Part shown: positions 18,891 through 57,705 of the stretch, piece by piece | Layout: each line of letters opens with the position of its first letter | How positions within the stretch are numbered: position 1 is the stretch's first letter | Assembly: GCA_001790815.1 (NCBI GenBank) | Contig: MGDU01000018.1 | Coordinates: 788-64,787, forward strand | Direction of reading: 5' to 3' | DNA length: 64,000 nucleotides | Source: Candidatus Uhrbacteria bacterium RIFCSPHIGHO2_02_FULL_46_47 | Lineage (GTDB): Bacteria > Patescibacteriota > Patescibacteriia > GWA2-47-26 | Notes under the pieces: model-generated | Databases searched by the model: none | What the model was told of the DNA's origin: nothing | Seen by the model: the letters and a program-made list of their open reading frames with translations, nothing else | Position numbers and translations under genes: made by a program

Positions 18891-19529
18891 TTACTGTCCC
18901 GCAGGGACAGTAAAGAGCTTCCCTTCTCCTTTCGGATTATATCCATTTCTTACTTCTTGCCCGTCAAGAAAATTATCTCCATCAGTATCTGCGTCTAAAG
19001 GATCCGTCTGATAGGTATTTACCTCTTCCCCATCCAAAAGACCATCATTGTCTGAATCCGGATTTTGCGGGTCAGTTCCGCGTGAAGTTTCATCTTCATC
19101 TGAAAGCCCGTCATTATCCGAATCTGCCGGCGGAGCAGGCGGTACTTCTTCCACAATAGTTTCTTCAGTTGGCGCAGTAGTAGCTTCGGGCAAAGTAGGA
19201 ATTTCCGGAGGAACTGGCTGTGATACTTCTGCTTGAGGCGGCGCTGGCGGCGCAGCACTGCGGCGCGCAAAACGAAGCACTGCCACTGCTATTCCGGCAA
19301 CAACAAGTATGCCAAGCACAATACCGCCAATTAAAATTGTTTTGCGCGAAGCAATAAGCGGCTGTTTTACTTCTGCCGGTGTTCCCTCACCCTCCCCGCG
19401 CCCTTTGGGAGAGGGTGCTCCGCCCGCAGGAGGAGCGGGTGAGGGAGCTGGCTCCACTTTTTCAAAAATATCTTCTGGCGCAGGGCCTGTGGGTAAATTA
19501 GGAGGCGTTTGTTCTTCAAACATTGGCAT
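18891..19529 (-). CDS. membrane-anchored protein with TSP3-like repeats and an in-frame GEGEG insertion
   Basis: DSDNDGLSDEDE…DSDNDGLLDGEE…DTDGDNFLDGQE. Confidence 0.65.
   Translation of the reverse strand: MPMFEEQTPPNLPTGPAPEDIFEKVEPAPSPAPPAGGAPSPKGRGEGEGTPAEVKQPLIASRKTILIGGIVLGILVVAGIAVAVLRFARRSAAPPAPPQAEVSQPVPPEIPTLPEATTAPTEETIVEEVPPAPPADSDNDGLSDEDETSRGTDPQNPDSDNDGLLDGEEVNTYQTDPLDADTDGDNFLDGQEVRNGYNPKGEGKLFTVPAGQ
19403..19465. repeat. GEGEG element copy inside the TSP3-repeat gene
   Basis: ccctcaccctccccgcgccctttgggagagggtgctccgcccgcaggaggagcgggtgaggg. Confidence 0.8.
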
Positions 19530-21575: not shown

Positions 21576-24500
21576 TTAAGGAGTTACATTAATCTTATAC
21601 GTTACTGAGCCGGCATCATCTAGTCCCTTATAAATTGTTCCATTGGAATCAGAGCACACAGCTGTTTTAGAACCGGTTTCAACTGCATCGGCTTTTCGTG
21701 CCTCGTCATGTAAAGTTCCAGTATGTACATTATTTGCTGCTGTTCCAGTTTGTGTTGATAAAGAACTACCAGAGGAACGGTGTAAAATCCAATTAGGTGA
21801 AACAAAACTTATATTTGAACTTTTTTGAAATCTATATGTTCCTGAATGATCACCATTGGGGGAATGCTGGTGAGGTATAGAAACAACCAATCCTCCTGCA
21901 AGCGTGGTAGTATGCGTATGAATAAAACCATCACTATGATGGAAAAGAATTTCAAGATCATACTGTCCAGGTAATAAAGAAGTAACACTGGTCTGTTTTG
22001 CATTTCCGCCATATGCAAAATCAATTAGCTGATCATCAAGATATACACAGAAGGTATCATTTGAATCACTATAGTCACTTACCTGTAAAGTTACCGCCAC
22101 ACAGTCAGTTGCCGAATTACAATCTTCATCAACCGCATTGTTGCATAGCTCAGTTGCATCAGGATTTACCTTGGCATTGTTATCATTGCAATCCGTTGAA
22201 GCAGGATAGTTGTCATTGTCTTGATCATTGTCACAGGTATCAGAAACACGATCCCCTGCGTATTGCCCACTTGAAAGATTAGTGACTGCAGATGTTGGTT
22301 GTGATTTATAACTAACAGAGCCTTGTAAGATATTTTCCCTATCAAAATTATTTTCCGTACAAGTGCCTCCAGTACAAACCGTACTGGGTTCCGTGCAATT
22401 TGCTGTAGGATTATTACCGCCACTACACTGCTTTAATTTATTTTGGCAAAACGATCCGCCGCGGCATGCTTGCGTACAATTATTGGCGGTACAAGTCGGC
22501 GGCCCCGGCCGCAGGCGAACTTGGTCTACATGAATATCATCATCATAGTTTTCCACACGAATACGCAACCACCCATCATAAGCACGATTAGGACCAGCAT
22601 CATAAGCCGCGGTAAGCTCAATATATTGCCAAGTATTGGGATCGTGGTCTAATTGGAAATAGGAGTTTGGCGAGGAGTCTGGCGGATATTTATATTCCGT
22701 ATCATTTGGAGCGCCTTCCCGATCCATAATTAATCTCACCCCTTGCGATCCGGTAGTTTGATCAGTATTGACCCAAGCAGATGCGACATACGTTTTTCCA
22801 TCAGTATCAGGAAATCGATATCGAACTTCGCCTGCATTTGCAGATGGATCAATTCGCATTGTGTAAGTACTGTTGTATCCTGGAGTATGGCGTACAGCAA
22901 CTGCATTGCCCTCTACCCATGCATCAACATCAGCAACGGTAGCAAAATTCCCAAAATACTCATTTGTGCCAACTGTTCCTTTGCATACATATTTGGGCGC
23001 GCCGACAATGCCAGCGGTATAACTCAACCCTTGCGTGCCTTCGCACTGTTCAGAGGGCGGTTCATAAATTGTGTTGCCGCAAAAACCGCCGGTGCGCGTA
23101 ATAGCATTGCATTGGTTGTCGCAATAGGTACAGTTTCCTCCATATTGCGGTGTGCAAGGAACGCCGTTTTGCGCGCCTAAATCACAATCTTCAGGATCTT
23201 GGCAAACTCCACCGGTTCCGCATTGTTCGTTAGTCGTGCATGGTCTGCCTTTTTGCGCGTCAGTTCCCGTGGTACAAACTTTGATTTGATTCTTGCCATC
23301 ACCACACTGCGCGCGCGTGCAATTGTTAAGACATCCGTCTTCGTCGCCGTCCGGAGTGCTGTTATTATTCGCATCCGCGGTATTTTGCTGCCCATCATCA
23401 CACTGCTCCGTGCCATTTGTTGTTCCGTCGCCACAGCGCTCGCCGGTTTGCACACACGAGGAAGACCAACCTCCCGAAGCTCCCCAAGTGCATCCGCTTG
23501 TACAAGTACGTTCAAACGCTGTGCTATATCCTCCGATAAAGGTTGGTGCCGAGGTTGTGCTTACTGAAATATCATATTGAATGTAGCCGGGGTCTGTGGA
23601 ATGAGTCCGCGCGCACCATGCAGTTGTACCATTATCACCATTAGGCAATTGGCAACCATTTGTAGCGCTGCGTCCTGTGCATGTTTCTCCTGCTAAAGGA
23701 CAATCCGCATCGCGTGCACAGAGCGTTGTACTTATAGAACAATGTCCAAAAAGTATCGTTCCCACCGGAAGCGCTTGGGGCATATGCAAACGGCCAACTG
23801 TGTAATCATCTGCAGTACCAGCAGCAGGACCATATAGAGAGCTGCCACCTGTTGCTCCGGCAGAAGTGTGTATGATTGGCGTCCTTCTGAAACTTACTCC
23901 TGATCCCCAAACAAGCTGATAATGACCTTGATTATATCCGTTTTTATATTTTATTATTACGGAGTGAGTTCCGAGTGGCAGAGTGAATGTTTTGGGTTCA
24001 TCTTGATACCCGGCAGTGCCAATACCAATACTGGATCCATCCAAAAATATTTCAAAAGTATCCAAGGCCACATCCTCTTCTGGTTGTTTTTGTTGAATCG
24101 TCAAAGTTGTAGTTAATCCTCCAAGCGTGCCTGCAGGTCCGCAAATTGCGCAGGTTTGTCCGGGGTCGCACTGCGCATTGCTTGTGCAGGGCGTTGCAGT
24201 AAGAGCTCCGCTGGAAACAATTCTACACCTGCCTGCTGAGCGGCCAGTATTGCCTAGTTCGCACTGCTCAGTGCCGTTCACGAAAGTATCTCCGCAGTGT
24301 TGCGCAGGGCCGCCGCAATCAAATTTGCAACAGCCATAATCTCCATTTACGCAGGCAGTTGATGGTGCAGCCGCTGTTCCGGCAGTTGAAAAGGTTTCGG
24401 TTGCAAAGTTATAAGTTTGCCGATCACAAACCTCTGCTCCGGTTTTAATGCCATCTCCGCAGTGCGCGGCAAGGCCTGTACAGGTCGCGTTGCACTTTCC

Positions 24501-27500
24501 ATAATTTCCGTTCAATAATCCATCGTCGCAGACTTCATGTTCTCCTGAATCATTAGTATCACCGTCATTATTCAAATCAATATCTTCACGAAGGCCATTG
24601 CCGCAAAAAGTACCGCCTGGAGAGCAATCCGCCGCATCAACCGTACCGCCAGGCCAATCATTCCAATTAGAACAATCACTCTTGCACTCTCGCCGCGCCG
24701 TGCAAGAAGTTAATTTTTGACAAAGGCCTTGCGAGTTACCATCGCCGTCAAGCGGGCAAGGTGTATTTTCCGCAAGTGTTGGGCAAGTTACAGATGGATT
24801 GCCGGTACAGCGTTTTTCGCCTCCAGGAGCAAAATTTACCACCGCAGTATTTTCAGTTCCTAATTCACAAATCTCTGGAGGTTCAATAATAAGATTTCCG
24901 CTTTCTGGAAGTTCAATAATACGATTTCCGCATACCGCAGTCGCATTGCTCCAAGTAGTTCCCGCGGCCTCAACTTCGCATCCGCCGCTGGTATCAACTT
25001 CTTGCTCGCCTGTTGAAGGATCCCAACCATAAACATCCCAAGCCATAGTTTCATTCTCCACCTTTTCCACAAGCTCAAACGCGGAGGATAATTTATAGCC
25101 AACCCCGCCCAAGGATTGATATTGATAAATATGGCTTCCTTTTGGACAAATATACTTTTGCATTTGCTCATTCCAGCAAGTTGCCGGGTTATATGTTCCT
25201 TTCTCTGTCGGGCCTGAAACACATGGCGCGCCAAACCGATCTATCGGATCTTGCGGCAAAGGCGCACCAAGAGCGGAGCCAAACGTAGCATTCCAAGAAG
25301 GCCATTTTGAAGTGGAAAGCGAACGGATAAAGGTGCCGGCTTCTAAAGTGGGATAGCGGCCGGTGCGCGCCTTATATCCGGCAAGGGCGGCCTGCATTGC
25401 GGTTACCTGTTGTATGCGGATAATATCGCGGGCAAGTTTTTCTCTGTCGGAGCGGCACACTACGGTTTCACCGGTTGCGCAATCAAGATCCTTAACGCAT
25501 GATTTTTGCACGCATAAACCATCCACACCATCTGTTTCGCAATCATCATCATTATTGTCCTCGCAATCCTGAGTTGGATTATTGGCGCAGAAATTTTTCT
25601 CGCAGGTTTTCAGATTTTCAAGATTTACGTTGAATTTAAGATTTTCAATCAACTCATCAAACACTACTTTAAGATTTGCTGGCGCGCCTTCAGAAAGAGA
25701 GATCAAATACACATTATCAAATACCTTCTTTGTCGGAGGGCTTGTTGTTGTATCAGTTGTGGCATTTGTCGCGGCAATGTAAATAGTATTGCCTTCCTGA
25801 AGCGCTTGATAGCCGTCAATGGGCGCCGGCGTTGGCGAAGGCGTACCGCCAAAACCCATGCGGTTGTACCAAGCAGCTAAGGGCAAACGCTCCGGATTGG
25901 AAAGCACGCGTATACCAATGGCATCATCTTTAACCCGTCCGCGGCGCAAAGTTACTTTATGAATTTTCAGATTCGGATCCCAAATAGAACCTTCAGCATA
26001 AGTTGTCCCGTCAACGATAAGCTGAGCGCTTGGTAATTTATCTTCATTAGTCCAAGTTTCATCTTCATTGGTCCAAGTAAGTTTGACGGCGTGATCGCCT
26101 TTGGAAACGCCGCGCAAAATTAAACGACCGTCGTTACGCTTGGTTTCAGATCCGGCTTGATTAACAACAAAACCTTTAACAGCGCCATCGAGGCTAATTT
26201 GAATACGGTGATAGTATGCGCCAGTCAGTTCTTTAACATCATCGGACCGATTGCGAAGCGCGGCTCGCACAGCATCAGGAATATTCTTTGCCTCCAGCAC
26301 CGCGGCAAGATTGGAAAGATCATCATCTTTAGGATCATTATTATGATCGTAATTGGAAGTTTCAACCGCGATTTCATAATCGCCCGGCTCAGGGAAATTA
26401 AATGTATAGTCAGGAAACGAACCATTGTTCTCTCTTATGTCATTAGCTGGTTGACGCACGCCATTGGGCACAGAAACACCTTGAGTAAATGATTTGGCAG
26501 TAAGCAAGATTTCCTTAAGCGTCTGCGGCGCTGGATTATCATGCGAGCTTGCAATATAATAAGCATTTTTTGGTTTTGGGAAAAGTCCGGTAATAAGCGG
26601 GATGAGCACTGGCGGCGGATAAGAAAGCTCAGGCAAAAGCGTTGCGCCATCGCGGCAATAGTGCGTTCTAAAATTCAACGGCCGCTCAGTCCCTAAAATA
26701 TGCGCGTCTATGACGGGTGCTGTACCATACTCCTCATTATCAATCAAATAATACGTGGTTGTCGCATCAGCCGGCCACGGGTTGTCACAGCGGAATAAAC
26801 TAAATTCCGCAAAACCCACGCGCGTTTGTCCGGCTTGTTCGCCGCAATCCTGATCAGTTACGCAGGTACGACTGCTATTGTTGGCGCACTTCAGCGCGCC
26901 TGAAATTTCACGGCAAATCCCCGGTTGAATAATGGATTCTGGACGCACAAAATCTTCGGTAATCGTGGCGGTGGCATTAACTTGCGCTGTGCCGTCTTTA
27001 GTGCCGGCTGTTACGGTTTGTTCAGGAAGCGTTACTGGACTAAGAGGATTTGTTGCGGAACAACCAGTTGTGGCCCCATACGGTTTTCCTCCACACCTCT
27101 GTTCAGTTCTATTTGTTGCGGTTACGGTTTCCAGCTCAGAGGATCCCCAAGACCAAGCCCAGCTATAACCCGGCACCGGATAAATCGGTTGTCGTTCGTG
27201 ACTTTGTGTAGCAGTCCTTGTGGCAGAAGTATAAGCAGTTGCCTCAACATCCGCGGTCTGCGCTGTTGCGGTAAGGGCCGCAGTATCCGGCGGTACCACG
27301 ATTACCTCCACCTCATCAAGGGTGCAAATATCCTTGCCGGTTGTAAATTCCCAGCTCATGTCCAGACCAAAGGCCCCGCCATTAAATCCGACCCCAGCTT
27401 GGGAGCGCAGGCCGCCTTTTACCACTTCCCCGGTTGCGGTAAATTTATCGCCGGCAATGCCAACGCGATATGTTACAGGGTCGTCTTTATCGCCAAGCAT

Positions 27501-30500: not shown

Positions 30501-33500
30501 AACCGGGGAGGCCGGCCGAAGCGTGCCAGTCCACTGGCAAGGATATTGCGTGCCCGCGTCAGCGCAAAGCGCTTTTTTTGCCACGCTGTCCAAAAGCGGC
30601 ATATTGTCATCGCATTCTTCCCCGGCATCAACCCGGCCGTTTCCGCAAAGCGCGGCTGGTTGAGGCCCTTGACGCAAGCAAGTTGTGGAGCTGCACCACG
30701 GCGCGAAAGTTTCATCGGCTTGCTTTTCACATTCTTCTCCGCGATCCAACCGTTTATTTCCGCAAATCGGAATATCCGAGCGCGTACCTTCATGCAAGCA
30801 TTTGGAAGAACAGCCGTCCCCATCTTGCCGATTGCCATCATCACAGTCTTCGCCAATCCCTACTGTGCTGTTACCGCATATAGGAGTATTTGTCCCCTCA
30901 TTTAAACACTTGTCTGAACAGCCATCTCCATTTGTAAGATTGTTATCATCACAATCTTCAAACAAATCAATATTCCCATCACCACAGCGCAATGCAAAGT
31001 TTGATCCTTCATGCACACATGCGCTTGAACAGCCATCGCCGCTTATTATATTTCCATCATCACAATCTTCGCCCGGGTCAAGGGCGCCATTGCCGCAAGG
31101 CACGGACCAAACTTGCACATTGGCCTTATTGGTAACGGCCGCGGTATTGCCGCTATTGTTTACCATGGCTTTGCTAAATTGCGCGCCCATGCCGGCGTTT
31201 GTACAAACTCCGTCCGCGCAACTTGGCCAGTATGAAATAACGCGCGGCGGCTCAAATTCAACAGTCAAATCGCCTTGTCCGGTTTTATTTTCAGTCGTGG
31301 CTTGGATATGAACCGGGATTGGTTTTCCGGTTTGCTGATCTAGCTCAGTTTCCGCAATCGCGGTTGCGGTGGTGGTCCAGCCCATTTGCGTGCAATATCC
31401 GGAAACGCAAGCCGGAAGCGCGCCAATTGAGCAGTCCGCGTCAGTTGCACAAGCATGTCCAATATGAGGCGGACTTGCTCCCGGATTATAACTCACGGTG
31501 GCCTTGGCAGTATCAGTGCTTTGCCAGGCCCAAGCATAACTTCCGGGTTTTGGAATAACGCAAGGATCTCCGGCGGCAACCGGTACTGCCGAGTACTCAA
31601 TCATTTCATTTTCCGCGCGCGCGGTATATTTTTTCGGCACAACCGCAATGCCACCCACTTTGCAAAGATTGTCTTGCGCATTTGGCTCATTTTTAGTTTT
31701 GAACCTGAAACAGTAGGCCGCGCTGGCATCCCCACAACGCGCTGGCGCGTCTTTTAACACTTCCATGCCTTGCCCTTGACGGACTCCAATATCTTGCGCT
31801 TTAATGCCGCTTGCTCCGCCAATCAATGTTACGCGATACCAGGTATTGGGATCGAAATCAGAAGATGAATAATAGCGGAAGCCGATGTCGCCGGGATATT
31901 CATCAATAAGATTCGCATCTACCGTATTGGCTTCAACCGCGGTGCAAGGATCACCAGTGACTTGCACATCATCAACATACATAGCAAACAATTGCGCTGG
32001 ATCAGAATATTGCGCAATGGTAGCCGCGTCATTGGCTTGCGTCTTAGTTCCTTCGCGCAGATCATACGGCGCGCCTTCCATAAATACGCGCACAAATCCG
32101 GGGGCGGTATGCGCGTCAAAGGTAAGCGATACAGAAACCTGTCGCCAACTTTCTGTAAGCATGGTTTCTTGCGACGCTTTTTGCCACGCATTTGGCGTAT
32201 TTGCCGCAAGTGCAGAACCGTCCCGCTGAATCAAAATTCCGGCGCGCTTGCCAAATGCGGCCGCGTTTCCCGCGCGCACCCAAGCCGTGGCAGTATAGGT
32301 TTTGCCATTGGTGTTTTCAATTGCATTGGCTTGATATCCAAACCAGTGCTCATAATTTTGTTGAATACCAGTCTCATTTGCCCAGCCCGGTCCGGTATCA
32401 TCATCAAGCTTGGTCAGATGCAAAGCATACGTGTCAGTATCATTTGGATTGCGTCCTTCCCCTGGCGCGAGCACTGCGTCAAGCACTTGATTTTCCAATT
32501 GCGCGACAACATCAGTCGGATGCGGCGGATGCGCCCATTTTGCCGTTGTCCCGGCAAACGAAGAATCATTGCCCGTAAGCAGTTCTTGCGTACCAGTGCA
32601 CTTTTGCAATTTGATATTGGTAGCGTTAAGCGTGGCCGGCAAAACCGGCGTGTTAAAGGTTACTGCCACTGCGGCGTTGACGCAGACATTAACATCTTTA
32701 TTGCGTCCGGACTGCGCGGCCGGGCTGGGCGAAGGCGGAAATTCCGGATGATCTATGCCTCCGTCTTCAAATGTATCGCACTGCGCAATAACTTCCGGCA
32801 CAAGCGGCTTGGGAGAAGTGGAAAATTGCCAGCCATAGGCCGAAACAGGCGTTACAAAAGTTGGACACGGGCTGTTGCAACTGCCATCTAAACAGCATAT
32901 CAGCGAAGAGCCGCAATTAAGATACAAGGGGCCAACCGGCGCGCGGCAAGAGCCCACGGTAAATAAGAGCGGATTGGAATAGCGCGTAACGTCGTCAATA
33001 TCCTGCTCCACTATCACCGCTCCGGTGCGCGCCACATTTGGCGGGGTTGCGCTTGGATCATTAGGCAAAGCGGCGCAAGCTTTATTTCCGGACCAGCCGC
33101 TTAAGGGACAAGTATCATTCGGAACCCCGCCAATGTTGGTCGGAGTGGCGCGAGCGGAAACCCAAGATGCACTGCGTGCTCCAGTTACTGGATCAAATGC
33201 CACAGGAGGATCTGGTGAATCTTTGCGCGTAAAGAATAGCCCGCGATCCGCTATAACGCTATTTCCAAAATTCTCGCCATATACGCTTACACGACTCGTA
33301 AGCGGTCCGCCTGTGGGACGAATGCAAGCCAAAAACGGCCCGGGCGTGGTATTGGTAACTTCAAAGTCCTTTCCAGCGGATTGCTGGTCATAACGATAAA
33401 CTTGTACATTATATATTGTACCAATGCTAAGTCCTTGCGGCACTTTGACAGTAATAACATGCGGCGTCCACCAGGTCGTGCCGCATTGAGACGGAAAATT

Positions 33501-35603
33501 AACATCGGCCAATACTGCAACTCCACTGGTGGGATGCACAAAATAAACACTGCCGCACGGGGCACCGTTTGGCGCGCAAAGATCACCAAAATTATTTCCT
33601 AAAATTGAGATTCCCGTACCTACTCCTCCGGAAGGCGGGGTAATGCTTAAAATTTCCGGAAGTGTTCCTTTAAGCGGGGAAAGAACTTCATAAGGCAGGG
33701 CGTTTGAAGCAATGCCTTCCGTGTTCAACACCTGCACTCCAAAAGTTTCATAGTCAATCGGGATAACCGCGGTTTGCGCGCTAGTATCAGTCCAGTTGGC
33801 AACCCCTGCTCCGCCAAGTCCGCCAAACAAAACTGCACCAGGAGTTGCCCCAAACTGCGCGCCTCTAAGGGCAACCGCAGTTCCCCATCCGCCCCTGGCT
33901 TGATCCGCCGGAGGAGATTTTACTGAACACAGACCCGGACGCGCCGTATTATTTACCTCAAACGAGCCGTCTGCGACAATTGATCCTTGCGGAGGCGGAT
34001 GAAGCGGCACCACAGGTCCGCGCGTGTCATCTGTGGAGTCGCGGCAAAGTGAATCGTTTGCCGCGCACCCGGCAGTGGCAAGAGTAATTGGCCCGGTTAC
34101 CGCGCTCTCAGGCAAGCCAGGCAAGCCAACCAGCACAGAATTATCTGTCCAGGTATTTTCTCCAGCGCAGGCCTGTGGAGCAGAAGCCACCTTATCATCT
34201 TCCGGCGCGGAAGTGCCTTTAAATACCACGGTTCCGGCTTGGGATCCAAAACTATATCCGGCCAGCGCCACAAATGTGCCTGGCCGTCCATCACCCGGGG
34301 ACACGCCGGTAATTTTGGTGGGTTCAGCGCATATGCCATTGATGCAAGCTCCGCCGGAGCACTGAATATTTTGAGTGCAGGACGCTCCATTGCAAAGCCC
34401 GCATCCTGAAGGACCATTCACTTGACTGTCGCAATCCACCTGATCTTCATCATCATCTTTAATATCATTGAAACAGTGCAAAGGCCGCACCATTACCGCC
34501 ACTGGTGCTGACAGCGTATTATTATCATCCACATCATACGCCCTGGCCGTGAGCCGACGCGCTTTGGGAGCTGGAGGCGGCGGATACCAGCAAGGAATTT
34601 CCAGCACAGTATCAGTAGGGGTTGTGTCATTGGAAGGCATGATGCTCCCACCCGTTATCAATTGTCCATCCATGTAAAATTTGACCAACGAAACTCCGCC
34701 ATCATCAGTCACTTTTGCCTGCACTCGCACACACGTACCAACTGCCACTGGCTCGCCTTCATCCGGATATTCCAGGGTTACAGTTGGTGGCGCTACATCA
34801 ACCAAAGATCCGCTATGAAAAGCGCCAGTGCATGAGGGCGCGAGCCCGCCGCAAATCAGTTTTTTGCCGTCAGCGCTTAACAGTTTTTCTTTGGCTTCTA
34901 CAGTAAAGTCAGTTTCGGCGTCAAAACACTTGCGATCAGTGTTTGGCGCCGGACATGCCGTGCGCGGCCGCAGTTCAATAGTATAGTCATTTACAATTGG
35001 ATCCGTTTCCACCAGCACTCCTTCATCTCCATCACTTGCTTTGCGGCGCACTTCTATAGTTGAACGTATATTTTCAAGGTCGCCAGTTGGTTTTTTGCTC
35101 AAAGTTACGCGCACTACAATATTGCGTATCGTGCTTGCGCCGCGCGGCGTAATTCCTTTGACAATAAAAGCGTCTTTTGGCAAACCTTCGGGACAATCCG
35201 GGCCAAGACAAGGAGTAGCAATTATGACTTCCCTCGGACCGCGCGTTGCTTCAATCAGTTTATTGATAACAAATTGTGTAATGGCAAATGAGGTTAAGAT
35301 AATAATCAACCCGATAATGGCATTGCGCAGAACTTTTTTTGCTTTTTCAATTGTTTCTTCATTGCCAGCCGCGGTCATCCACAAAAATCCACCGTAGATA
35401 ATTAGCGTTAGCACGACAATGCCAAGAAAACCGAGCGCCACTCGAATAATCCGCGCCGCAATCAGACGCGGGTCAGCCGCCGTCAAAGCCAGCCCCTCCA
35501 CTTCGGCAGAAACCTGAGCAAAACTTGTATATGCTAAAAGCAAGCCCAGTAGTGTAGCTGCGCTTATTATCCAACCTCTCAATTTTTTCATGAGTTTTGC
35601 CAT
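21576..35603 (-). CDS. giant (4675 aa) cell-surface protein. Signal peptide plus TrbC/VirB2-like two-helix N-terminal anchor, IPT/TIG-like domains, and at least 15 'Myxococcus cysteine-rich repeat' units (CGNG..E.GEECDDGN…DGCS..C)
   Basis: Single 14-kb ORF; repeats read from the translation. Confidence 0.9.
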   Translation of the reverse strand: MAKLMKKLRGWIISAATLLGLLLAYTSFAQVSAEVEGLALTAADPRLIAARIIRVALGFLGIVVLTLIIYGGFLWMTAAGNEETIEKAKKVLRNAIIGLIIILTSFAITQFVINKLIEATRGPREVIIATPCLGPDCPEGLPKDAFIVKGITPRGASTIRNIVVRVTLSKKPTGDLENIRSTIEVRRKASDGDEGVLVETDPIVNDYTIELRPRTACPAPNTDRKCFDAETDFTVEAKEKLLSADGKKLICGGLAPSCTGAFHSGSLVDVAPPTVTLEYPDEGEPVAVGTCVRVQAKVTDDGGVSLVKFYMDGQLITGGSIMPSNDTTPTDTVLEIPCWYPPPPAPKARRLTARAYDVDDNNTLSAPVAVMVRPLHCFNDIKDDDEDQVDCDSQVNGPSGCGLCNGASCTQNIQCSGGACINGICAEPTKITGVSPGDGRPGTFVALAGYSFGSQAGTVVFKGTSAPEDDKVASAPQACAGENTWTDNSVLVGLPGLPESAVTGPITLATAGCAANDSLCRDSTDDTRGPVVPLHPPPQGSIVADGSFEVNNTARPGLCSVKSPPADQARGGWGTAVALRGAQFGATPGAVLFGGLGGAGVANWTDTSAQTAVIPIDYETFGVQVLNTEGIASNALPYEVLSPLKGTLPEILSITPPSGGVGTGISILGNNFGDLCAPNGAPCGSVYFVHPTSGVAVLADVNFPSQCGTTWWTPHVITVKVPQGLSIGTIYNVQVYRYDQQSAGKDFEVTNTTPGPFLACIRPTGGPLTSRVSVYGENFGNSVIADRGLFFTRKDSPDPPVAFDPVTGARSASWVSARATPTNIGGVPNDTCPLSGWSGNKACAALPNDPSATPPNVARTGAVIVEQDIDDVTRYSNPLLFTVGSCRAPVGPLYLNCGSSLICCLDGSCNSPCPTFVTPVSAYGWQFSTSPKPLVPEVIAQCDTFEDGGIDHPEFPPSPSPAAQSGRNKDVNVCVNAAVAVTFNTPVLPATLNATNIKLQKCTGTQELLTGNDSSFAGTTAKWAHPPHPTDVVAQLENQVLDAVLAPGEGRNPNDTDTYALHLTKLDDDTGPGWANETGIQQNYEHWFGYQANAIENTNGKTYTATAWVRAGNAAAFGKRAGILIQRDGSALAANTPNAWQKASQETMLTESWRQVSVSLTFDAHTAPGFVRVFMEGAPYDLREGTKTQANDAATIAQYSDPAQLFAMYVDDVQVTGDPCTAVEANTVDANLIDEYPGDIGFRYYSSSDFDPNTWYRVTLIGGASGIKAQDIGVRQGQGMEVLKDAPARCGDASAAYCFRFKTKNEPNAQDNLCKVGGIAVVPKKYTARAENEMIEYSAVPVAAGDPCVIPKPGSYAWAWQSTDTAKATVSYNPGASPPHIGHACATDADCSIGALPACVSGYCTQMGWTTTATAIAETELDQQTGKPIPVHIQATTENKTGQGDLTVEFEPPRVISYWPSCADGVCTNAGMGAQFSKAMVNNSGNTAAVTNKANVQVWSVPCGNGALDPGEDCDDGNIISGDGCSSACVHEGSNFALRCGDGNIDLFEDCDDNNLTNGDGCSDKCLNEGTNTPICGNSTVGIGEDCDDGNRQDGDGCSSKCLHEGTRSDIPICGNKRLDRGEECEKQADETFAPWCSSTTCLRQGPQPAALCGNGRVDAGEECDDNMPLLDSVAKKALCADAGTQYPCQWTGTLRPASPVGQGCGNRKIEIGEDCDDGNLQPGDGCDGACRNEGSSPGTIPACGNGGTADAGEDCDDGNTVSGDGCSSKCLNEGRPSATCGNGGKPEIGEDCDDRNTTNNDGCSSICANEGTAAPVCGNGALDNGEDCDDKNVANGDGCSNVCKNEGRPAESVNSNDLILTWDTNTNAVSIDAGMLNPNTNYRVLLRGADNPATTVQVEGLHGLASGGALGKTLSNLNFIYNWEVSGAPHEEGVRCSLLPSAPVDERCNTFSWTFKTKDLPCGVDRVEVNPAQASLYVIGARQPYSSQPYGPPDSCSPQGQKLNQFIYNWSWDTQDQVIATIVNQPGVNTIPSCGDGISEQGEDCDDGNTFADDGCDEFCLNEGSDFEFACGEGDDPDVVEECEKTSLEYETPWCSNNCLHRGSTPCPLGATTNCCGNEIVESGEDCDDGNNLASDGCSPICLNEGTSRATGQCGNGTVDHPQNNPELGGEECDPNETTGIRKYFCNPETCLLRGTLPQPKCGNGIIETGEECDEASKDCGGHPVRQPCAIGNVGDGCSADCLHEGSPRTCGNGKLDKGEDCDDGNAASGDSCSSACLNEGTKAEAGPVSPATLPETPPRRDPFQQARAEGIKKFCRSDTTPDFQETVGGQLVSCTSNTNCTTAGFGICAPTNPWSTTDVQATAGGKTGASPLTVYCVAKTDKDCPVPNGSASPTIGRGSDNCCYNRPTVTARTPTIGEVCRNALIRATFSQPMDQESLSGNFILARQYEDKCPAGTAEVRDNGQIISPNILRNSSFEQETPLAWTLEKDQTANAADNISRRELSSADQIAGTYAISAEMVETDVLAIEQDKAPPDGPSVTATQTVTLPANTSYTLSAKVRVISMGTVTESPIGIGLYKERTGADPYLRFARGPLTQTSGWVNVSGTFTTVEAGEYVVFVAIVGGETEALFDQVELRKVVITQAKSTHIFARAWRWIVELFKRLTPSARAQNPVWCVESDIELTTTAAQNGQAVILQPSKMLGDKDDPVTYRVGIAGDKFTATGEVVKGGLRSQAGVGFNGGAFGLDMSWEFTTGKDICTLDEVEVIVVPPDTAALTATAQTADVEATAYTSATRTATQSHERQPIYPVPGYSWAWSWGSSELETVTATNRTEQRCGGKPYGATTGCSATNPLSPVTLPEQTVTAGTKDGTAQVNATATITEDFVRPESIIQPGICREISGALKCANNSSRTCVTDQDCGEQAGQTRVGFAEFSLFRCDNPWPADATTTYYLIDNEEYGTAPVIDAHILGTERPLNFRTHYCRDGATLLPELSYPPPVLIPLITGLFPKPKNAYYIASSHDNPAPQTLKEILLTAKSFTQGVSVPNGVRQPANDIRENNGSFPDYTFNFPEPGDYEIAVETSNYDHNNDPKDDDLSNLAAVLEAKNIPDAVRAALRNRSDDVKELTGAYYHRIQISLDGAVKGFVVNQAGSETKRNDGRLILRGVSKGDHAVKLTWTNEDETWTNEDKLPSAQLIVDGTTYAEGSIWDPNLKIHKVTLRRGRVKDDAIGIRVLSNPERLPLAAWYNRMGFGGTPSPTPAPIDGYQALQEGNTIYIAATNATTDTTTSPPTKKVFDNVYLISLSEGAPANLKVVFDELIENLKFNVNLENLKTCEKNFCANNPTQDCEDNNDDDCETDGVDGLCVQKSCVKDLDCATGETVVCRSDREKLARDIIRIQQVTAMQAALAGYKARTGRYPTLEAGTFIRSLSTSKWPSWNATFGSALGAPLPQDPIDRFGAPCVSGPTEKGTYNPATCWNEQMQKYICPKGSHIYQYQSLGGVGYKLSSAFELVEKVENETMAWDVYGWDPSTGEQEVDTSGGCEVEAAGTTWSNATAVCGNRIIELPESGNLIIEPPEICELGTENTAVVNFAPGGEKRCTGNPSVTCPTLAENTPCPLDGDGNSQGLCQKLTSCTARRECKSDCSNWNDWPGGTVDAADCSPGGTFCGNGLREDIDLNNDGDTNDSGEHEVCDDGLLNGNYGKCNATCTGLAAHCGDGIKTGAEVCDRQTYNFATETFSTAGTAAAPSTACVNGDYGCCKFDCGGPAQHCGDTFVNGTEQCELGNTGRSAGRCRIVSSGALTATPCTSNAQCDPGQTCAICGPAGTLGGLTTTLTIQQKQPEEDVALDTFEIFLDGSSIGIGTAGYQDEPKTFTLPLGTHSVIIKYKNGYNQGHYQLVWGSGVSFRRTPIIHTSAGATGGSSLYGPAAGTADDYTVGRLHMPQALPVGTILFGHCSISTTLCARDADCPLAGETCTGRSATNGCQLPNGDNGTTAWCARTHSTDPGYIQYDISVSTTSAPTFIGGYSTAFERTCTSGCTWGASGGWSSSCVQTGERCGDGTTNGTEQCDDGQQNTADANNNSTPDGDEDGCLNNCTRAQCGDGKNQIKVCTTGTDAQKGRPCTTNEQCGTGGVCQDPEDCDLGAQNGVPCTPQYGGNCTYCDNQCNAITRTGGFCGNTIYEPPSEQCEGTQGLSYTAGIVGAPKYVCKGTVGTNEYFGNFATVADVDAWVEGNAVAVRHTPGYNSTYTMRIDPSANAGEVRYRFPDTDGKTYVASAWVNTDQTTGSQGVRLIMDREGAPNDTEYKYPPDSSPNSYFQLDHDPNTWQYIELTAAYDAGPNRAYDGWLRIRVENYDDDIHVDQVRLRPGPPTCTANNCTQACRGGSFCQNKLKQCSGGNNPTANCTEPSTVCTGGTCTENNFDRENILQGSVSYKSQPTSAVTNLSSGQYAGDRVSDTCDNDQDNDNYPASTDCNDNNAKVNPDATELCNNAVDEDCNSATDCVAVTLQVSDYSDSNDTFCVYLDDQLIDFAYGGNAKQTSVTSLLPGQYDLEILFHHSDGFIHTHTTTLAGGLVVSIPHQHSPNGDHSGTYRFQKSSNISFVSPNWILHRSSGSSLSTQTGTAANNVHTGTLHDEARKADAVETGSKTAVCSDSNGTIYKGLDDAGSVTYKINVTP

Positions 35604-35605
35604 TG

Positions 35606-35685
35606 CTATATTGCTATATTGCTATATTGTTTCCGTACCTTCCATATAACAATATAACAGTATAACAATTTAACAATATCTCTAG
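35606..35685. repeat. intergenic hairpin of tandem 'gctatatt' units (gctatattgctatattgctatattg … caatataacagtataacaatttaacaatat)
   Basis: Read directly. Confidence 0.65.
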
Positions 35686-37808
35686 AATCCACACGCTGCC
35701 CCTTGCGCCACGCCATTGCAACAATATGGAAGCGCAACTGTAGTTGCGCAGGAAACTGTAGCGCTTCCCGACACTATTCCATCCGCGCCGGCTGGATAAT
35801 AACAATTTTGATATAAGTCCCGCACTCTGGAAGTTGCTTCATTTGCGTAAGCGGTTTTTTCCCAAAGCCCGCCATGGACAATTCGCGCTAAAGTCCAGCC
35901 ATCCGGATGCGGATGAGCCGCATCTGCTTGCAGATTTTCACCTTGGAGTGTCCACCAACTGTCCCAAAATCCGCCGGTTATCTCATCAGTGCCGGAAAGC
36001 AAGATATTCGCGCTTGAAAAAGTTGTCATGGCCATGAAACGGTCAAAAGTCATTTCAATGGGATTGACAAGCGAGGCGCCGGAGGTCGCGTCGGAATAAG
36101 TAGTAACTGGGGCGGTTTGCTCAATAATCGCTGAACCCAAAAGAATCGTATTGCTGGTAGAAAACGCAAAACGCGCGTTATCGCCGGGCGGCACTACTGC
36201 GGGAGCATATACAATATTCATGTCATAATATGCGGCCGGCCCTTGCGCTGTCCCATTGCTATTTCCATCTAAAGAATTGCCGGCAATATCTTCAATGCCA
36301 TCAAACCGTCCAGCGGACGCGGGGTCGTTCCCGCCCGGTTGAGCCAAAGTAGCGGCCAGCACTCGCGTTTCAATCCTACTGCTTGCCGGCAAACAAAATA
36401 CGTCTTCTCCGCAAGAATTTTGTCCGCAAAGATCAGCACTTATAAACTCAGAGGTGCGATATTGATTGCCCAACCGCCAAGCGCCGGCAAGAAATTCGGA
36501 GGTGTCCGCGCTAAAGACCTGCATCACCCTATAGGAACCAGGCTGAATGCTCAGCCCTGCGGTGGGCCGCGTTCCTGAAACCACCGTGGTGCTACCGGAG
36601 GCCACGGTCGGAAGCACGCCCTCATTAAAATTCACTTGCAACATGGAATTGCGCGGACGGTTTTCCGCGCCCGGAGTTGGAATCACGCTTTGAATGCGTG
36701 GCGGCGTTACATCTAAAAATGTTCCGGTGGTAAATGGCCACTGATAATCCTTAAAGCGCCCTTGAAACGCGGAGGTCTGAGTGGATAAAAGCTTAATGCC
36801 ATTACTTGCGCAATTGCCGCGGCTTGGAAAGGTGCCGCAAAGATATACTTGATATAAAACATCGTCTTTGGGATCGCCAAACAGCGCGCGATGCGTCCGA
36901 TTTGCCCGTTCAACCGGAGCTAGTACAAACGTGCGCAAATCTTGAGTAAAGCTAACCAGCACATCTATATTGCTGGCGTTGCTTCCCAGATATTTTGTCC
37001 CATCGCTTGCGCGCACAGTGCTGGCATTCATGTCCGTGGATTTGATAATCTGAATCGCGCTGGGTATTCCGTCGTTTCCTTCTCGTTTAAGGCGCAGAGC
37101 CGACACTGGGATTCCGCCGATATCCAGAGTGGGAAAATGATAAGCGCCATCTTCGCTTTGCGTAAAAATTTCGGTTCCCTCCGTCGCCTCTGGCACAAGT
37201 TCTGCCAAACTTTCCGGATCAATCTTTTCTTTGAATGTAATAATGATACGCGTGTTGCGCGCGACATTTTCAGCGCCGCGAGGCGGGTAATGACTTTCAA
37301 TTATTCCAGAGCCCAACGCTCCTCCGCCCAGCCGCGGCGGAGCCGCGGAAGGAGAAGGAAGCGGTGGCACTCCCTGATCAGCCAAAAGTTTATTTATTAT
37401 GAATTGAGTAATGGCAAAAGCAGAAAGAATAATCGCCAAACCAATCGTGGCATTAATAAGTACTTTTTTGGCTTTGGCAATGGTTTCTTCATTTCCCGCG
37501 GAAGTCATCCAAAGATATCCGCCGTATAGAATAAGCACAAGCGCCACCATGCCTAAAAATCCTAAGGCAACGCGAATAATTTTTGCCACAATAATGCGCG
37601 GATCAGTTGTAGGCAAGGCCAGCCCGGCAAGGCCTGGAACCTCGGCAATTTGTGTTATCGGAACTGCGCCCGGCGCAGGAAGAGCTTGCGGGGCAGGAGG
37701 CGGCGGCGGAGGGGCAATCTGTTGTGCAAAAACAAAAATTGGGACAACCAAAAATATGGCAAGTCCCAATATGATGAAAAAATACCTTTTTTTAGCTAAG
37801 CTTCGCAT
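35682..37808 (-). CDS. 708-aa surface protein paralogous at its N-terminus (about 85% identity over 80 aa) to the giant protein; C-terminal Cys cluster
   Basis: DPRIIVAKIIRVALGFLGMVALVLILYGGYLWMTSAGNEETIAKAKKVL… versus the giant protein N-terminus. Confidence 0.85.
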   Translation of the reverse strand: MRSLAKKRYFFIILGLAIFLVVPIFVFAQQIAPPPPPPAPQALPAPGAVPITQIAEVPGLAGLALPTTDPRIIVAKIIRVALGFLGMVALVLILYGGYLWMTSAGNEETIAKAKKVLINATIGLAIILSAFAITQFIINKLLADQGVPPLPSPSAAPPRLGGGALGSGIIESHYPPRGAENVARNTRIIITFKEKIDPESLAELVPEATEGTEIFTQSEDGAYHFPTLDIGGIPVSALRLKREGNDGIPSAIQIIKSTDMNASTVRASDGTKYLGSNASNIDVLVSFTQDLRTFVLAPVERANRTHRALFGDPKDDVLYQVYLCGTFPSRGNCASNGIKLLSTQTSAFQGRFKDYQWPFTTGTFLDVTPPRIQSVIPTPGAENRPRNSMLQVNFNEGVLPTVASGSTTVVSGTRPTAGLSIQPGSYRVMQVFSADTSEFLAGAWRLGNQYRTSEFISADLCGQNSCGEDVFCLPASSRIETRVLAATLAQPGGNDPASAGRFDGIEDIAGNSLDGNSNGTAQGPAAYYDMNIVYAPAVVPPGDNARFAFSTSNTILLGSAIIEQTAPVTTYSDATSGASLVNPIEMTFDRFMAMTTFSSANILLSGTDEITGGFWDSWWTLQGENLQADAAHPHPDGWTLARIVHGGLWEKTAYANEATSRVRDLYQNCYYPAGADGIVSGSATVSCATTVALPYCCNGVAQGAACGF

Positions 37809-40465: not shown

Positions 40466-41101
40466 TCATAATTCGCCCGTATTAATCTCATAGTTCGGTG
40501 TTAAAAATCTTGTAACGCGATCAAGCGGCCAGCCGCGAATCCAGGCACGGCCAACGATGTAGTCGCGCAATACTGGTCCGAATACTCGAGAATCAAGCGA
40601 AGAGGTGCGATTGTCTCCTATCACAAAATATTCTTCTGCTCCAAGACTGACTTCTTTGTCTCCAATCGTCACAGCTGACCGGCTCAAATATGGCTCTTCA
40701 AGGGTGGCCCATGTTTTGGAATCCTTGGACTTTATCAGCACACGGCTGCTTTGAATGCGCAATGTCTCACCGGGCAAACCAATCACGCGCTTAATAAAAA
40801 ATTGCGATGGATCGTTTGGATATCTAAATACTACAATCTCGCCGCGCTTAGGATCGCGAAATCTGAAACTTGCCTCATCAATAATCAAATATTCATGATC
40901 ATAGAAATTTGGTTCCATGGATGCGCCTTTCACATAAAAAGGCTGCACCAAAAAATAGCGAATCGGGAGAATGATTGCCAGTGAAATAACAATCACGCGT
41001 ATGAGTTCTCCGACGTAGGCTAGCCCATCCCGCAGCAATTTGCGCAATCCTTGAATATCTTGAATATTTTGTGATGGCATAAATAAAAATTCTATCCACA
41101 T
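40466..41101 (-). CDS. lepB: signal peptidase I
   Basis: GASMEPNF…, VIGLPGETL S26 motifs. Confidence 0.9.
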   Translation of the reverse strand: MWIEFLFMPSQNIQDIQGLRKLLRDGLAYVGELIRVIVISLAIILPIRYFLVQPFYVKGASMEPNFYDHEYLIIDEASFRFRDPKRGEIVVFRYPNDPSQFFIKRVIGLPGETLRIQSSRVLIKSKDSKTWATLEEPYLSRSAVTIGDKEVSLGAEEYFVIGDNRTSSLDSRVFGPVLRDYIVGRAWIRGWPLDRVTRFLTPNYEINTGEL

Positions 41102-56498: not shown

Positions 56499-56501
56499 AC
56501 T

Positions 56502-57704: not shown

Positions 57705-57705
57705 A

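What the first reader, a model, noticed from the sequence alone, without database searches (positions are those of the whole stretch)
21576..37808. Adjacent giant (4675 aa) and 708-aa surface proteins share a TrbC/VirB2-like two-helix anchor
The first ~80 residues after the signal peptide are about 85% identical between the two neighbouring genes (DPRxIxAxIIRVALGFLGxVxLxLIxYGGxLWMTxAGNEETIxKAKKVL.NA.IGLxIIL..FAITQFxINKL). That segment is two hydrophobic helices separated by a short charged loop, the architecture of type IV secretion pilins (TrbC/VirB2). The giant protein then continues with IPT/TIG-like domains and at least 15 Myxococcus-type cysteine-rich repeats. A pilin-like module fused to huge adhesin-like ectodomains may be a surface-display system for host or episymbiont attachment.
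Basis: inference. Interest (0 to 1): 0.55.

Follow-up and report, generated by a model that had tools for sequence, protein, structure and literature searches.

The report
Pilin-headed giant adhesin gene pair
Two adjacent genes of an uncultured Uhrbacteria (Patescibacteria) genome each start with the two-helix module of a conjugation-type (VirB2-like) pilin. One continues into a 4-domain Ig stalk and the other into a 4,500-residue adhesin-like ectodomain, and the same gene pair recurs in most of the several hundred related species genomes found, so it is a candidate for the host-attachment part that has not been found for their type IV secretion system.

Summary
Both ORFs exist as described (4675 aa and 708 aa, minus strand). 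Each has a Sec signal peptide followed by an ~80-residue module. The two modules are 75% identical in the core and 70% over 92 aa, not 85%.

The module matches Pfam PF18895 (T4SS_pilin) above its gathering score. It carries every residue that is invariant in the free pilins I aligned. It aligns in register with Agrobacterium VirB2 (hhalign 83%). AlphaFold2 models it as a confident helical hairpin.

Its closest relatives are free 100-148 aa Patescibacteria pilins (50-70% identity), which sit in tandem arrays. The medium-then-giant pair is conserved in 73 of 80 species loci examined (at least 562 matches). Gaps are usually ~3 bp, and the pair always sits among housekeeping genes, not next to T4SS genes.

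The module is the best-conserved part of both proteins. Partner modules also evolve in concert within a genome.

An assembly that is 100% identical to the window over their shared 12.5 kb is listed as VirB4-positive.

Best reading: these are modular VirB2-type pilins that hold Ig-stalk and giant adhesin ectodomains outside the cell. I found no paper describing such fusions. Whether they enter a pilus is untested.

The parts
35682..37808 (-). Medium gene (708 aa): signal peptide, pilin module, flexible linker, Ig-like stalk, Cys-containing tail
   Evidence: ORF. Pfam PF18895 and Big_5. Family of at least 183 proteins of 530-1130 aa, 112 of the 120 listed carrying PF18895+PF13205 and 8 only PF13205.
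37725..37808 (-). Signal peptide of p708 (aa 1-28; predicted cleavage VFA|QQ)
   Evidence: Read from the sequence. Hydrophobic segment 4-34. The family consensus keeps V-x-A-Q. Cleavage is inferred, not tested.
37377..37610 (-). Pilin (PF18895) module of p708, aa 67-144: helix, charged loop WMTSAGNEETIAKAKK, helix
   Evidence: Module HMM 118.5 bits. Pfam. AF2 helices 70-102 and 107-145.
37326..37376 (-). Pro/Gly-rich disordered linker of p708 (aa 145-161)
   Evidence: pLDDT below 50 over 145-161.
35685..37325 (-). p708 ectodomain (aa 162-708): beta-rich, tandem bacterial Ig-like domains
   Evidence: AF2 pLDDT mostly above 90 up to about residue 670, dropping to 49-65 in the last ~40 residues. 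Foldseek best matches are the BIg domains of LdtMt2 and the S-layer protein SbsC. Big_5.
35601..35678 (-). Intergenic RNA hairpin between the two genes; its 3' arm reaches the giant's ATG
   Evidence: dG -27.8 kcal/mol, z -6.45, 0 of 200 shuffles fold as well. Function not tested.
21576..35603 (-). Giant gene (4675 aa)
   Evidence: ORF. Identical to OGL65314.1. Family with 603 representatives at E<=1e-30.
35517..35603 (-). Signal peptide of the giant (aa 1-29; predicted cleavage SFA|QV)
   Evidence: Sequence; hydropathy. Cleavage is inferred.
35241..35480 (-). Pilin (PF18895) module of the giant, aa 42-121
   Evidence: Module HMM 122 bits. Pfam. AF2 hairpin with pLDDT above 90. hhalign to VirB2.
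33204..35240 (-). Proximal region conserved across the giant family (aa 122-800): Big_7, TIG and other Ig-like domains
   Evidence: Most of the 150 listed representatives align from their N-terminus to about residue 780. Big_7 and TIG.
28755..31100 (-). 15 cysteine-rich acidic repeats (TIGR02232/DUF4215), aa 1502-2283
27744..28037 (-). CBM_4_9 carbohydrate-binding-like domain, aa 2523-2620
   Evidence: (40.7 bits).
21579..27743 (-). Distal ~2050 aa: Cys-rich, mostly without Pfam matches, MopE motif at aa 4471-4500
   Evidence: One search finds no families for three 500-aa segments. MopE. The stretch just after the conserved proximal region already aligns poorly across the family: only 11 of about 125 relatives aligned over aa 801-1200. 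The distal 2,000 residues themselves were not compared.
18891..19529 (-). Downstream 212-aa TSP3-repeat protein, a recurrent downstream neighbour of the pair
   Evidence: TSP3_bac. The same family lies downstream in 24 of 83 loci and directly after the giant in L001. Any functional link is not shown.

Best explanation
The two genes form a conserved operon of modular VirB2-type (PF18895) pilins from Candidatus Uhrbacteria (Patescibacteria, class ABY1).

Topology. Each protein is exported by Sec and its signal peptide is probably cut after A|Q. It then inserts as a helical hairpin. Helix 1 crosses inward, the conserved charged loop WMT(A/S)AGNEE..AKK faces the cytoplasm, and helix 2 crosses outward. 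Everything C-terminal is therefore outside the cell. In one protein that is a stalk of about four Ig-like domains. In the other it is about 4,550 residues: a conserved Ig/TIG proximal stalk, then a region of cysteine-rich repeats and carbohydrate-binding-like domains that aligns poorly across the family.

Role of the module. The pilin module is not a passive anchor. It is kept under the same constraints as the free pilins and evolves in step with its partner. It most likely still engages other PF18895 modules, the T4SS assembly machinery, or both. On this reading the two proteins are adhesin-bearing minor subunits of the patescibacterial T4SS-type filament or its membrane platform, at the tip, the base or scattered along it. 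They would tether the episymbiont to a host surface.

Shown: homology to the pilin family, hairpin structure, domain content, conservation of the pair, conservation pattern of the module, VirB4 elsewhere in a matching assembly.

Inferred: signal-peptide cleavage, outside location of the ectodomains, adhesin role, any incorporation into a filament.
For: Family membership. PF18895 above the gathering score for both proteins. All seven invariant residues of the free-pilin alignment A1 are present in the giant (G61, G72, W75, M76, T77, G80, G98) and at the matching positions of p708. The closest relatives of the module are free 100-148 aa Patescibacteria pilins at 50-70% identity. These sit in arrays of 6-11 PF18895 genes.

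Link to classical pilins. 13 of 47 relatives also hit PF04956 TrbC. hhalign to VirB2 gives 83%. NCBIfam NF045849, a Mycoplasma ICE pilin-like conjugal transfer protein, scores 38 bits against a cut-off of 40.

Structure. AF2 hairpins have pLDDT above 90. A disordered linker is followed by Ig-like domains. There is no other hydrophobic segment. The giant has 214 Cys, which fits an extracytoplasmic location.

Conservation of the pair. Medium gene followed by giant gene in 73 of 80 species loci, median gap 3 bp.

Conservation of the module. Median identity of the module is 57%, against 31-36% for the next 680 residues of the giant family. It is 66% against 31-43% in the p708 family.

Concerted evolution. 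Partner modules in one genome are 59.6% identical, against 49.0% for non-partner pairs. This holds in 69 of 76 loci, with 0 of 10,000 permutations reaching the observed value, and it is not driven by GC content. Synonymous sites are near saturation in 41 of 44 pairs.

Background from papers. In F-type pili both pilin termini lie on the outside of the filament, and the loop is cytoplasmic before assembly (PMC7555446). A C-terminal fusion is therefore topologically compatible with display. VirB4 is present in the matching assembly GCA_001791415.1. The published survey found no PrgB-like adhesin in Patescibacteria T4SS (PMC12102498).
Against: No T4SS gene lies next to the pair in any of 83 loci. 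The conserved neighbours are signal peptidase I, HisRS, YqeY and a TSP3 protein.

The four free-pilin arrays I inspected are not within 10 kb of virB4 either.

No filament made of PF18895 proteins has been seen experimentally in the papers I read.

A 4,550-residue appendage on every subunit could not pack in a helical filament. At most a rare or terminal position is possible.

The direct PDB sequence match to VirB2 is not significant (E 4.3). The Foldseek search of the hairpin was uninformative.

Concerted evolution could come from occasional gene conversion rather than functional coupling. Two loci, L011 and L043, have pS below 0.3.
Confidence: 0.55

Rival explanations
1. Exapted anchor. The pilin hairpin has been recruited only as a two-helix membrane anchor for ordinary cell-surface adhesins or envelope proteins. 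The proteins never leave the membrane and have nothing to do with the T4SS.
For: The pair always sits among housekeeping genes, away from T4SS genes and from the pilin arrays. There is no other anchor in either protein. The size of the giant argues against packing into a filament. Giant membrane-anchored surface proteins are already reported in CPR bacteria (PMC8080830).
Against: Passive anchors normally conserve hydrophobicity rather than sequence. Here the module, including its cytoplasmic loop, is the most conserved part of both proteins (57-66% against 31-43%). It keeps every family-invariant residue. The two modules co-vary within genomes.
Confidence: 0.25
2. Heteromeric envelope complex. 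The medium and giant proteins pair with each other through their hairpins, forming a four-helix bundle or a larger ring in the membrane. This would be a dedicated two-component surface structure, for example an envelope-spanning fibre with the Ig stalk as a sheath or spacer, independent of free pilins and of the T4SS.
For: The genes are strictly co-conserved and often translationally coupled (median gap 3 bp). Similarity is partner-specific. Homology extends about 70 residues beyond the module in both proteins.
Against: No direct evidence of contact; multimer modelling was not available. The modules are about as similar to free pilins (44-46%) as to non-partner modules (49%). That does not single out a private pairing interface. 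Gene conversion also explains the similarity between partners.
Confidence: 0.15
3. The shared N-terminus is just a recent local duplication or gene conversion between neighbouring genes, with no functional meaning.
For: The genes are adjacent and on the same strand. Two other loci show low synonymous divergence between partner modules (L011 and L043).
Against: In this window synonymous sites are saturated (pS 0.70, dS ~2) while dN is 0.20. The arrangement is conserved in 73 of 80 species-level genomes across several candidate phyla of class ABY1.
Confidence: 0.03

Closest known systems
VirB2-like pilins of Patescibacteria (Pfam PF18895 T4SS_pilin). Examples are the essential pilin array of Southlakia epibionticum (Wang et al. 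2023, PMC10633639) and the phylum-wide survey by Quinonero-Coronel et al. 2025 (PMC12102498)
   Same: Same protein family by HMM, by invariant residues and by hairpin structure. Same phylum. Sec signal peptide. VirB4 is present in the matching genome.
   Different: The known members are 100-150 aa proteins in tandem arrays, often near virB4. Here the module heads proteins of 708 and 4675 aa in a fixed two-gene cassette among housekeeping genes. The papers I read mention no fusion of the pilin to other domains and state that no adhesin was detected.
TrbC/VirB2/TraA conjugative pilins of diderm bacteria (PF04956; T-pilus PDB 8cue)
   Same: Signal peptide, a DP motif before helix 1, two hydrophobic helices, and a G..WM motif at the end of helix 1. 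The module aligns in register with VirB2. The membrane topology places both termini outside.
   Different: The loop is 8 residues longer. Neither window protein hits PF04956 directly. The head-to-tail cyclisation of VirB2 and TrbC (stated from my own knowledge) could not occur with a large C-terminal extension still attached. The host is a monoderm.
Modular type IV pilins of type IV pili, such as PilB of Streptococcus sanguinis (PMC8179133)
   Same: Same design principle: a pilin module that enters a filament, fused to a bulky adhesive C-terminal domain, in a monoderm.
   Different: A different, unrelated filament superfamily. There is no class III signal peptide or prepilin-peptidase motif here. 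Incorporation into a filament is demonstrated for PilB but not here.
Giant surface proteins of CPR bacteria, for example Vampirococcus lugosii (PMC8080830)
   Same: Proteins of thousands of residues, predicted to be membrane-anchored, with interaction domains, proposed to attach the cell to its host.
   Different: That paper reports no pilin-type anchor. Here the anchor is a conserved pilin module, shared with a second co-transcribed protein.
Myxococcus-type cysteine-rich acidic repeat proteins (TIGR02232 / DUF4215)
   Same: 15 repeats with the CGNG..GE(E/D)CDDGN..GDGC pattern.
   Different: The repeats are only one segment (aa 1502-2283) of the ectodomain. They say nothing about the anchor.

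Membership tests
Pfam PF18895 T4SS_pilin (Patescibacteria VirB2-like pilins) | HMM score at or above the gathering threshold (26.6 bits) | tested here: met
   31.5 and 32.3 bits for the N-terminal segments; 28.8 and 26.7 bits for the full-length proteins.
Pfam PF18895 T4SS_pilin (Patescibacteria VirB2-like pilins) | Signal peptide followed by two hydrophobic helices joined by a short charged loop | tested here: met
   Hydropathy shows three segments only. AF2 hairpins have pLDDT above 90.
Pfam PF18895 T4SS_pilin (Patescibacteria VirB2-like pilins) | Family-invariant residues (G, G, W-M-T, G, G) | tested here: met
   Alignment A1 of 45 free pilins plus both window modules: 7 invariant columns, all present in both.
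Pfam PF18895 T4SS_pilin (Patescibacteria VirB2-like pilins) | Small stand-alone protein (about 100-150 aa) ending a few residues after helix 2 | tested here: not met
   708 and 4675 aa, while the 120 best module relatives are 100-148 aa. Some array members do carry extra domains (170-358 aa).
Pfam PF18895 T4SS_pilin (Patescibacteria VirB2-like pilins) | Encoded near virB4 or other T4SS genes | tested here: not met
   None in the 64-kb window, in about 8 kb beyond its left end, or in the +/-10 kb flanks of 83 loci. VirB4 is recorded elsewhere in the matching assembly.
Pfam PF18895 T4SS_pilin (Patescibacteria VirB2-like pilins) | Polymerises into an extracellular filament | not testable with these tools
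   Needs multimer modelling or experiment.
TrbC/VirB2 pilins (Pfam PF04956) | Direct HMM match | tested here: not met
   PF04956 is not listed for either window protein at E<=1. 13 of 47 close relatives do match (best E 9.6e-6).
TrbC/VirB2 pilins (Pfam PF04956) | Detectable homology to a pilin of a solved T4SS pilus | tested here: inconclusive
TrbC/VirB2 pilins (Pfam PF04956) | C-terminal processing or head-to-tail cyclisation (VirB2, TrbC) | not testable with these tools
   A signal peptidase I gene lies three genes upstream (with a small S21-like ORF in between) and is a conserved neighbour in 61 of 83 loci. It looks like the housekeeping enzyme.
Modular type IV pilins (type IV pili) | Class III signal peptide cut by a prepilin peptidase, with an N-terminal hydrophobic alpha-1 helix | tested here: not met
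   The N-termini are classical Sec signal peptides ending SFA|Q and VFA|Q. There is no T4P pilin Pfam hit. This is an analogy, not membership.
Cysteine-rich acidic repeat proteins (TIGR02232 / DUF4215) | Repeat HMM above cut-off, in multiple copies | tested here: met
   230.5 bits against 20.8, 10 stretches. 15 full repeats with my own HMM.
Gram-positive T4SS adhesins (PrgB-like) | PrgB-type adhesin domains and an LPXTG cell-wall anchor | tested here: not met
   No such Pfam families in either protein. No C-terminal hydrophobic segment.

The most novel reading that the evidence does not exclude
These are natural 'modular VirB2 pilins'. On this reading the giant and its Ig-stalk partner are the priming or tip subunits of a conjugation-type pilus in a monoderm. 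The pilus would carry a 4,500-residue adhesin to capture host cells. This would be the missing adhesin of the essential patescibacterial T4SS and the first T4SS pilin known to carry a functional ectodomain.
Probability: 0.3. Interest if true: 0.8.

Novelty: new variant of a known kind. Interest (0 to 1): 0.6.

Why it matters
The T4SS of Patescibacteria is essential for epibiotic growth in the one species tested (PMC10633639). It is unusual among monoderm systems in having VirB2-like pilins. Its function is unknown, and a phylum-wide survey found no adhesin for it (PMC12102498).

The cassette described here physically joins that pilin module to a giant adhesin-like ectodomain. It is conserved in 73 of the 80 ABY1-type species genomes examined closely, out of at least 562 that carry a relative of the medium gene. 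That gives a concrete candidate for how these cells hold on to a host.

It also gives a handle on what the pilin module interacts with. The module, including its cytoplasmic loop, is as conserved as a core housekeeping protein.

Finally, it shows that HMM-based counts of 'pilins' in these genomes can include multi-thousand-residue proteins.

Tried and rejected
Structure searches.
- Foldseek of the 125-residue hairpin model against PDB gave only generic helical hairpins, nothing at E<=0.001. This is uninformative, not negative.
- Foldseek of the p708 model found only tandem Ig-like domains and no enzyme fold. The LdtMt2 hits come from its BIg domains, so I do not read them as L,D-transpeptidase activity.

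Other copies and T4SS genes.
- A search for further copies of the module in the window found none beyond the two genes (tblastn; module HMM on all six-frame ORFs of at least 60 aa).
- A search for T4SS genes around the pair and around four free-pilin arrays found none.

Alternative causes of the similarity.
- Recent gene conversion was rejected for this window (dS ~2). It does occur in a few other genomes.
- GC-driven amino-acid bias as the cause of within-genome module similarity was rejected. The correlation is -0.008, and non-partner pairs with |dGC| below 0.01 are still only 50% identical.

Literature. Searches for pilin-fused giant proteins in CPR returned nothing relevant. This covers only the held library.

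Signal peptidase I. I considered it as a TraF-like pilin cyclase and did not adopt the idea. It looks like the housekeeping enzyme, and a large C-terminal extension still attached would preclude cyclisation.

Full report
**1. What is in the sequence**

The two ORFs are as reported: 21576..35603(-) encodes 4675 aa and 35682..37808(-) encodes 708 aa.

Each protein begins with a classical Sec signal peptide: a basic n-region, a hydrophobic core, then SFA|Q or VFA|Q. A short or Pro-rich spacer follows, then an ~80-residue segment starting at a DPR motif.

BLASTP of the N-termini gives 70% identity over 92 residues (E 3e-42). The ungapped core is 57/76 identical, or 75%.

Similarity continues at 50% for about 70 residues beyond the module and then stops.

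Each protein has three hydrophobic segments only, the signal peptide and two helices, and none anywhere else.

At the DNA level the two modules are 69% identical. Synonymous sites are near saturation (pS 0.70, dS about 2) while dN is 0.20. The duplication is therefore old and under purifying selection, not a recent copy.

**2. What the module is**

Both N-termini match Pfam PF18895 (T4SS_pilin) above its gathering score.

A search of 5.8 billion proteins with the module returned 461 hits. The best 120 are all 100-148 aa Patescibacteria proteins carrying PF18895, at 50-70% identity to the module.

I aligned 45 of these free pilins with both window modules. There are seven invariant columns (two Gly in helix 1, W-M-T, and two more Gly), and both window proteins have all of them. 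Free pilins simply end 5-10 residues after helix 2, where the window proteins continue.

The link to classical conjugative pilins is indirect but consistent:
- 13 of the 47 aligned sequences also hit PF04956 TrbC/VirB2 (best E 9.6e-6), and 13 hit DUF6112.
- NCBIfam NF045849, a Mycoplasma ICE 'pilin-like conjugal transfer protein', scores 38 bits against a cut-off of 40.
- A profile search of PDB sequences lists Agrobacterium VirB2 (8cue) second, in register but at a non-significant E of 4.3.
- hhalign of the profile against that VirB2 segment gives 83% probability over 54 columns. The DP motif, the LG.fG motif and the G..WM motif all line up. The patescibacterial loop is 8 residues longer.

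**3. The ectodomains**

p708 models with mean pLDDT 85 and pTM 0.75. After the hairpin comes a disordered Pro/Gly linker (145-161), then a beta-rich region whose pLDDT is mostly above 90 up to about residue 670. Its best structural matches are tandem bacterial Ig-like domains (the LdtMt2 BIg domains and the S-layer protein SbsC), with no enzyme fold.

The giant contains, in order:
- Big_7 at 273-318;
- TIG at 649-747;
- a weak CBM_4_9-like stretch near residue 1100;
- 15 cysteine-rich acidic repeats (TIGR02232/DUF4215) at 1502-2283;
- Big_5 at 2408-2483;
- CBM_4_9 at 2523-2620;
- about 2,000 Cys-rich residues with almost no Pfam match;
- a MopE motif at 4471-4500.

It has 214 cysteines. With a signal peptide and two further membrane passes, everything C-terminal of helix 2 is predicted to lie outside the cytoplasmic membrane. 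This is inference from topology rules. The cysteine content and the domain types agree with it.

**4. The pair is a conserved cassette**

The 708-aa protein belongs to a family of at least 183 proteins of 530-1130 aa. Of the 120 listed, 112 are annotated PF18895+Big_5 and 8 carry Big_5 only.

The first 1,200 residues of the giant find 603 cluster representatives at E<=1e-30. Of the best 150, 95 are at least 3,000 aa, and nearly all align from their own N-terminus through about residue 780.

In a collection with one genome per species, at least 562 stretches encode a relative of the medium protein. I examined the best 80 loci. In 73 of them the medium gene is followed on the same strand by a second, much larger gene that also starts with the module. 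Three more loci end at a contig edge. The median gap is 3 bp. The 42 complete giants are 901-3519 aa, median 3070. The window's giant is among the largest in the family.

The named genomes are Candidatus Uhr-, Magasanik-, Falkow- and Komeilibacteria and 'Patescibacteria group'.

The neighbourhood is conserved and is housekeeping. Upstream lie signal peptidase I (61 of 83 loci), HisRS (66) and YqeY (48). A TSP3-repeat protein is often downstream (24). No locus has a T4SS gene within 10 kb.

**5. Evidence that the module is more than an anchor**

Across orthologues the module is the best-conserved part. Median identity is 57%, against 31-36% for the next 680 residues of the giant family. In the p708 family it is 66% against 31-43%.

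Within a genome, the two partner modules are more alike (59.6%) than medium and giant modules from different genomes (49.0%). This holds in 69 of 76 loci, and none of 10,000 permutations reach the observed value. Typically only 6% of orthologous medium-protein modules from other species are closer to a given medium module than its own partner's module is.

This is not a base-composition effect. It is mostly not recent gene conversion either: pS is at least 0.5 in 41 of 44 pairs, and below 0.3 in two. Older, episodic conversion cannot be excluded.

**6. Context from free pilins and from the literature**

The free pilins closest to the module sit in arrays of 6-11 PF18895 genes. In all four loci inspected the array follows an SBP_bac_1/8 gene (the gene directly after it is itself a PF18895 gene; in L089 the main six-gene run lies about 4 kb further on). 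None is within 10 kb of virB4. Some array members carry extra domains, sometimes N-terminal of the module. The family therefore tolerates appendages at either end.

Published work reports the following:
- VirB2-like pilins occur in 1,948 VirB4-positive Patescibacteria assemblies. Arrays hold 2-11 genes. VirB4 is found in 2,417 of 3,035 assemblies. 'No adhesins, such as PrgB, were detected' (PMC12102498).
- The pilin array of Southlakia is essential (PMC10633639).
- A recent review calls these systems unique among monoderms for their potential to make conjugative pili (PMC12857230).

None of these papers, and none of my four literature searches, mention a pilin fused to large ectodomains.

In F-type pili both pilin termini are on the outside of the filament, and the loop is cytoplasmic before assembly (PMC7555446). 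A C-terminal fusion is therefore topologically compatible with display.

**7. Source organism and T4SS elsewhere**

The window comes from JGI contig Ga0209541_10000586, which is 71,822 bp long.

[quoted passage not shown] The giant is identical to OGL65314.1 / UniRef100_A0A1F7UPE8, which is annotated only as 'hypothetical' or 'DUF4215 domain-containing protein'.

That assembly is class ABY1 and is marked 'Presence of VirB4: Yes' in Table S1 of PMC12102498. I did not see the virB4 locus itself.

**8. Interpretation**

Solid findings:
- Both proteins are members of the PF18895 pilin family by their N-terminal module.
- They are predicted to be tethered to the cytoplasmic membrane by a hairpin, with large Ig-like or adhesin-like ectodomains outside.
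- The two genes form a conserved, tightly linked cassette across a class-level clade.

Most likely reading (confidence 0.55): the module remains an active pilin-type assembly module, so these are adhesin-bearing minor subunits of the patescibacterial pilin system.

Rivals:
- A purely exapted anchor (0.25).
- A private two-protein membrane complex (0.15).
- A meaningless local duplication (0.03), which is effectively excluded.

The finding is a new variant of a known kind. The pilin family, giant CPR surface proteins and the idea of modular pilins (in type IV pili) are each known. Their combination in a T4SS-type pilin, as a conserved pair, is not described in the literature I could search.

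Noticed in passing
window 35601-35678 (- strand): The 78-nt spacer between the stop of the 708-aa gene and the ATG of the giant folds into a long imperfect hairpin built from TGTTATA / TATAGCA repeats (dG -27.8 kcal/mol, z -6.45, 0 of 200 shuffles fold as well). Its 3' arm ends at the giant's start codon, and a GGAAGG lies in the loop. In most other species the two genes are only about 3 bp apart, so this may be a lineage-specific control of giant-gene translation or mRNA stability.
   Followed up: partly
window 7840-7912 (-) and 45705-45776 (+): ARAGORN calls two tRNA-Asp genes, one with the odd anticodon ATC. The Rfam tRNA model reports neither at its gathering score, although it does find the Val, Leu and Met tRNAs and the tmRNA.
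   Followed up: partly
window 19698-21071 (+): A plus-strand ORF (457 aa, two MopE metal-binding motifs) lies between the giant and the TSP3 gene. The local GC skew is reversed here. In the syntenic complete genome L001 the TSP3 gene follows the giant directly, so this looks like an insertion.
   Followed up: no
window 17884-18798 (-) and 18891-19529 (-): Two TSP3-repeat (calcium-binding type) proteins lie downstream of the giant. A TSP3 protein is a recurrent downstream neighbour of the pair (24 of 83 loci). It may be a third member of the cassette.
   Followed up: partly
window 40466-41101 (-): A signal peptidase I (S26) gene lies three genes upstream of the pair (a small S21-like ORF is in between). 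It is a conserved neighbour in 61 of 83 loci. It is probably the housekeeping enzyme that cuts both signal peptides. RP4 uses an S26-like peptidase to cyclise its pilin (from my own knowledge), so the linkage may be worth a look.
   Followed up: partly
L005 6567-12426; L006 4761-13839; L089 3828-12525; L090 2717-10423: In all four ABY1 loci inspected, the free PF18895 pilin array (6-11 genes) follows a solute-binding-protein gene (SBP_bac_1/8), which is immediately followed by a PF18895 gene; in L089 the main six-gene run lies about 4 kb further on. None has virB4 within 10 kb. The SBP-pilin linkage is unexplained.
   Followed up: no
L005 8568-9518; L006 4761-5651 and 7119-8624: Some array pilins carry their extra domain N-terminal of the module, for example a 316-aa protein with the module at 242-313. 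In the medium-giant pair the appendage is C-terminal instead.
   Followed up: no
L055 11734-12123; L061 8753-9250: In two species a small free pilin (129 and 165 aa) is inserted between the medium and giant genes. This links free and fused pilins in one operon.
   Followed up: no
L011 and L043 (medium and giant modules): Partner modules have low synonymous divergence here (pS 0.24 and 0.25; amino-acid identity 0.88 and 0.75). This indicates recent gene conversion between the two genes in these genomes.
   Followed up: partly
window 56001-58584: A low-GC patch (0.38, against about 0.48 for the window) holds a D12-class adenine methyltransferase (56502-57704) and an unannotated 292-aa ORF, between parB and parA. 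It may be an acquired restriction-modification remnant.
   Followed up: no
L009, L011, L014 and many other loci: Many species-representative genomes carrying the cassette are titled 'uncultured Gammaproteobacteria bacterium', and single ones 'Kapaibacterium' or 'Udaeobacter'. Their gene content and synteny are patescibacterial, so these record titles look like placeholder or wrong taxonomy.
   Followed up: no
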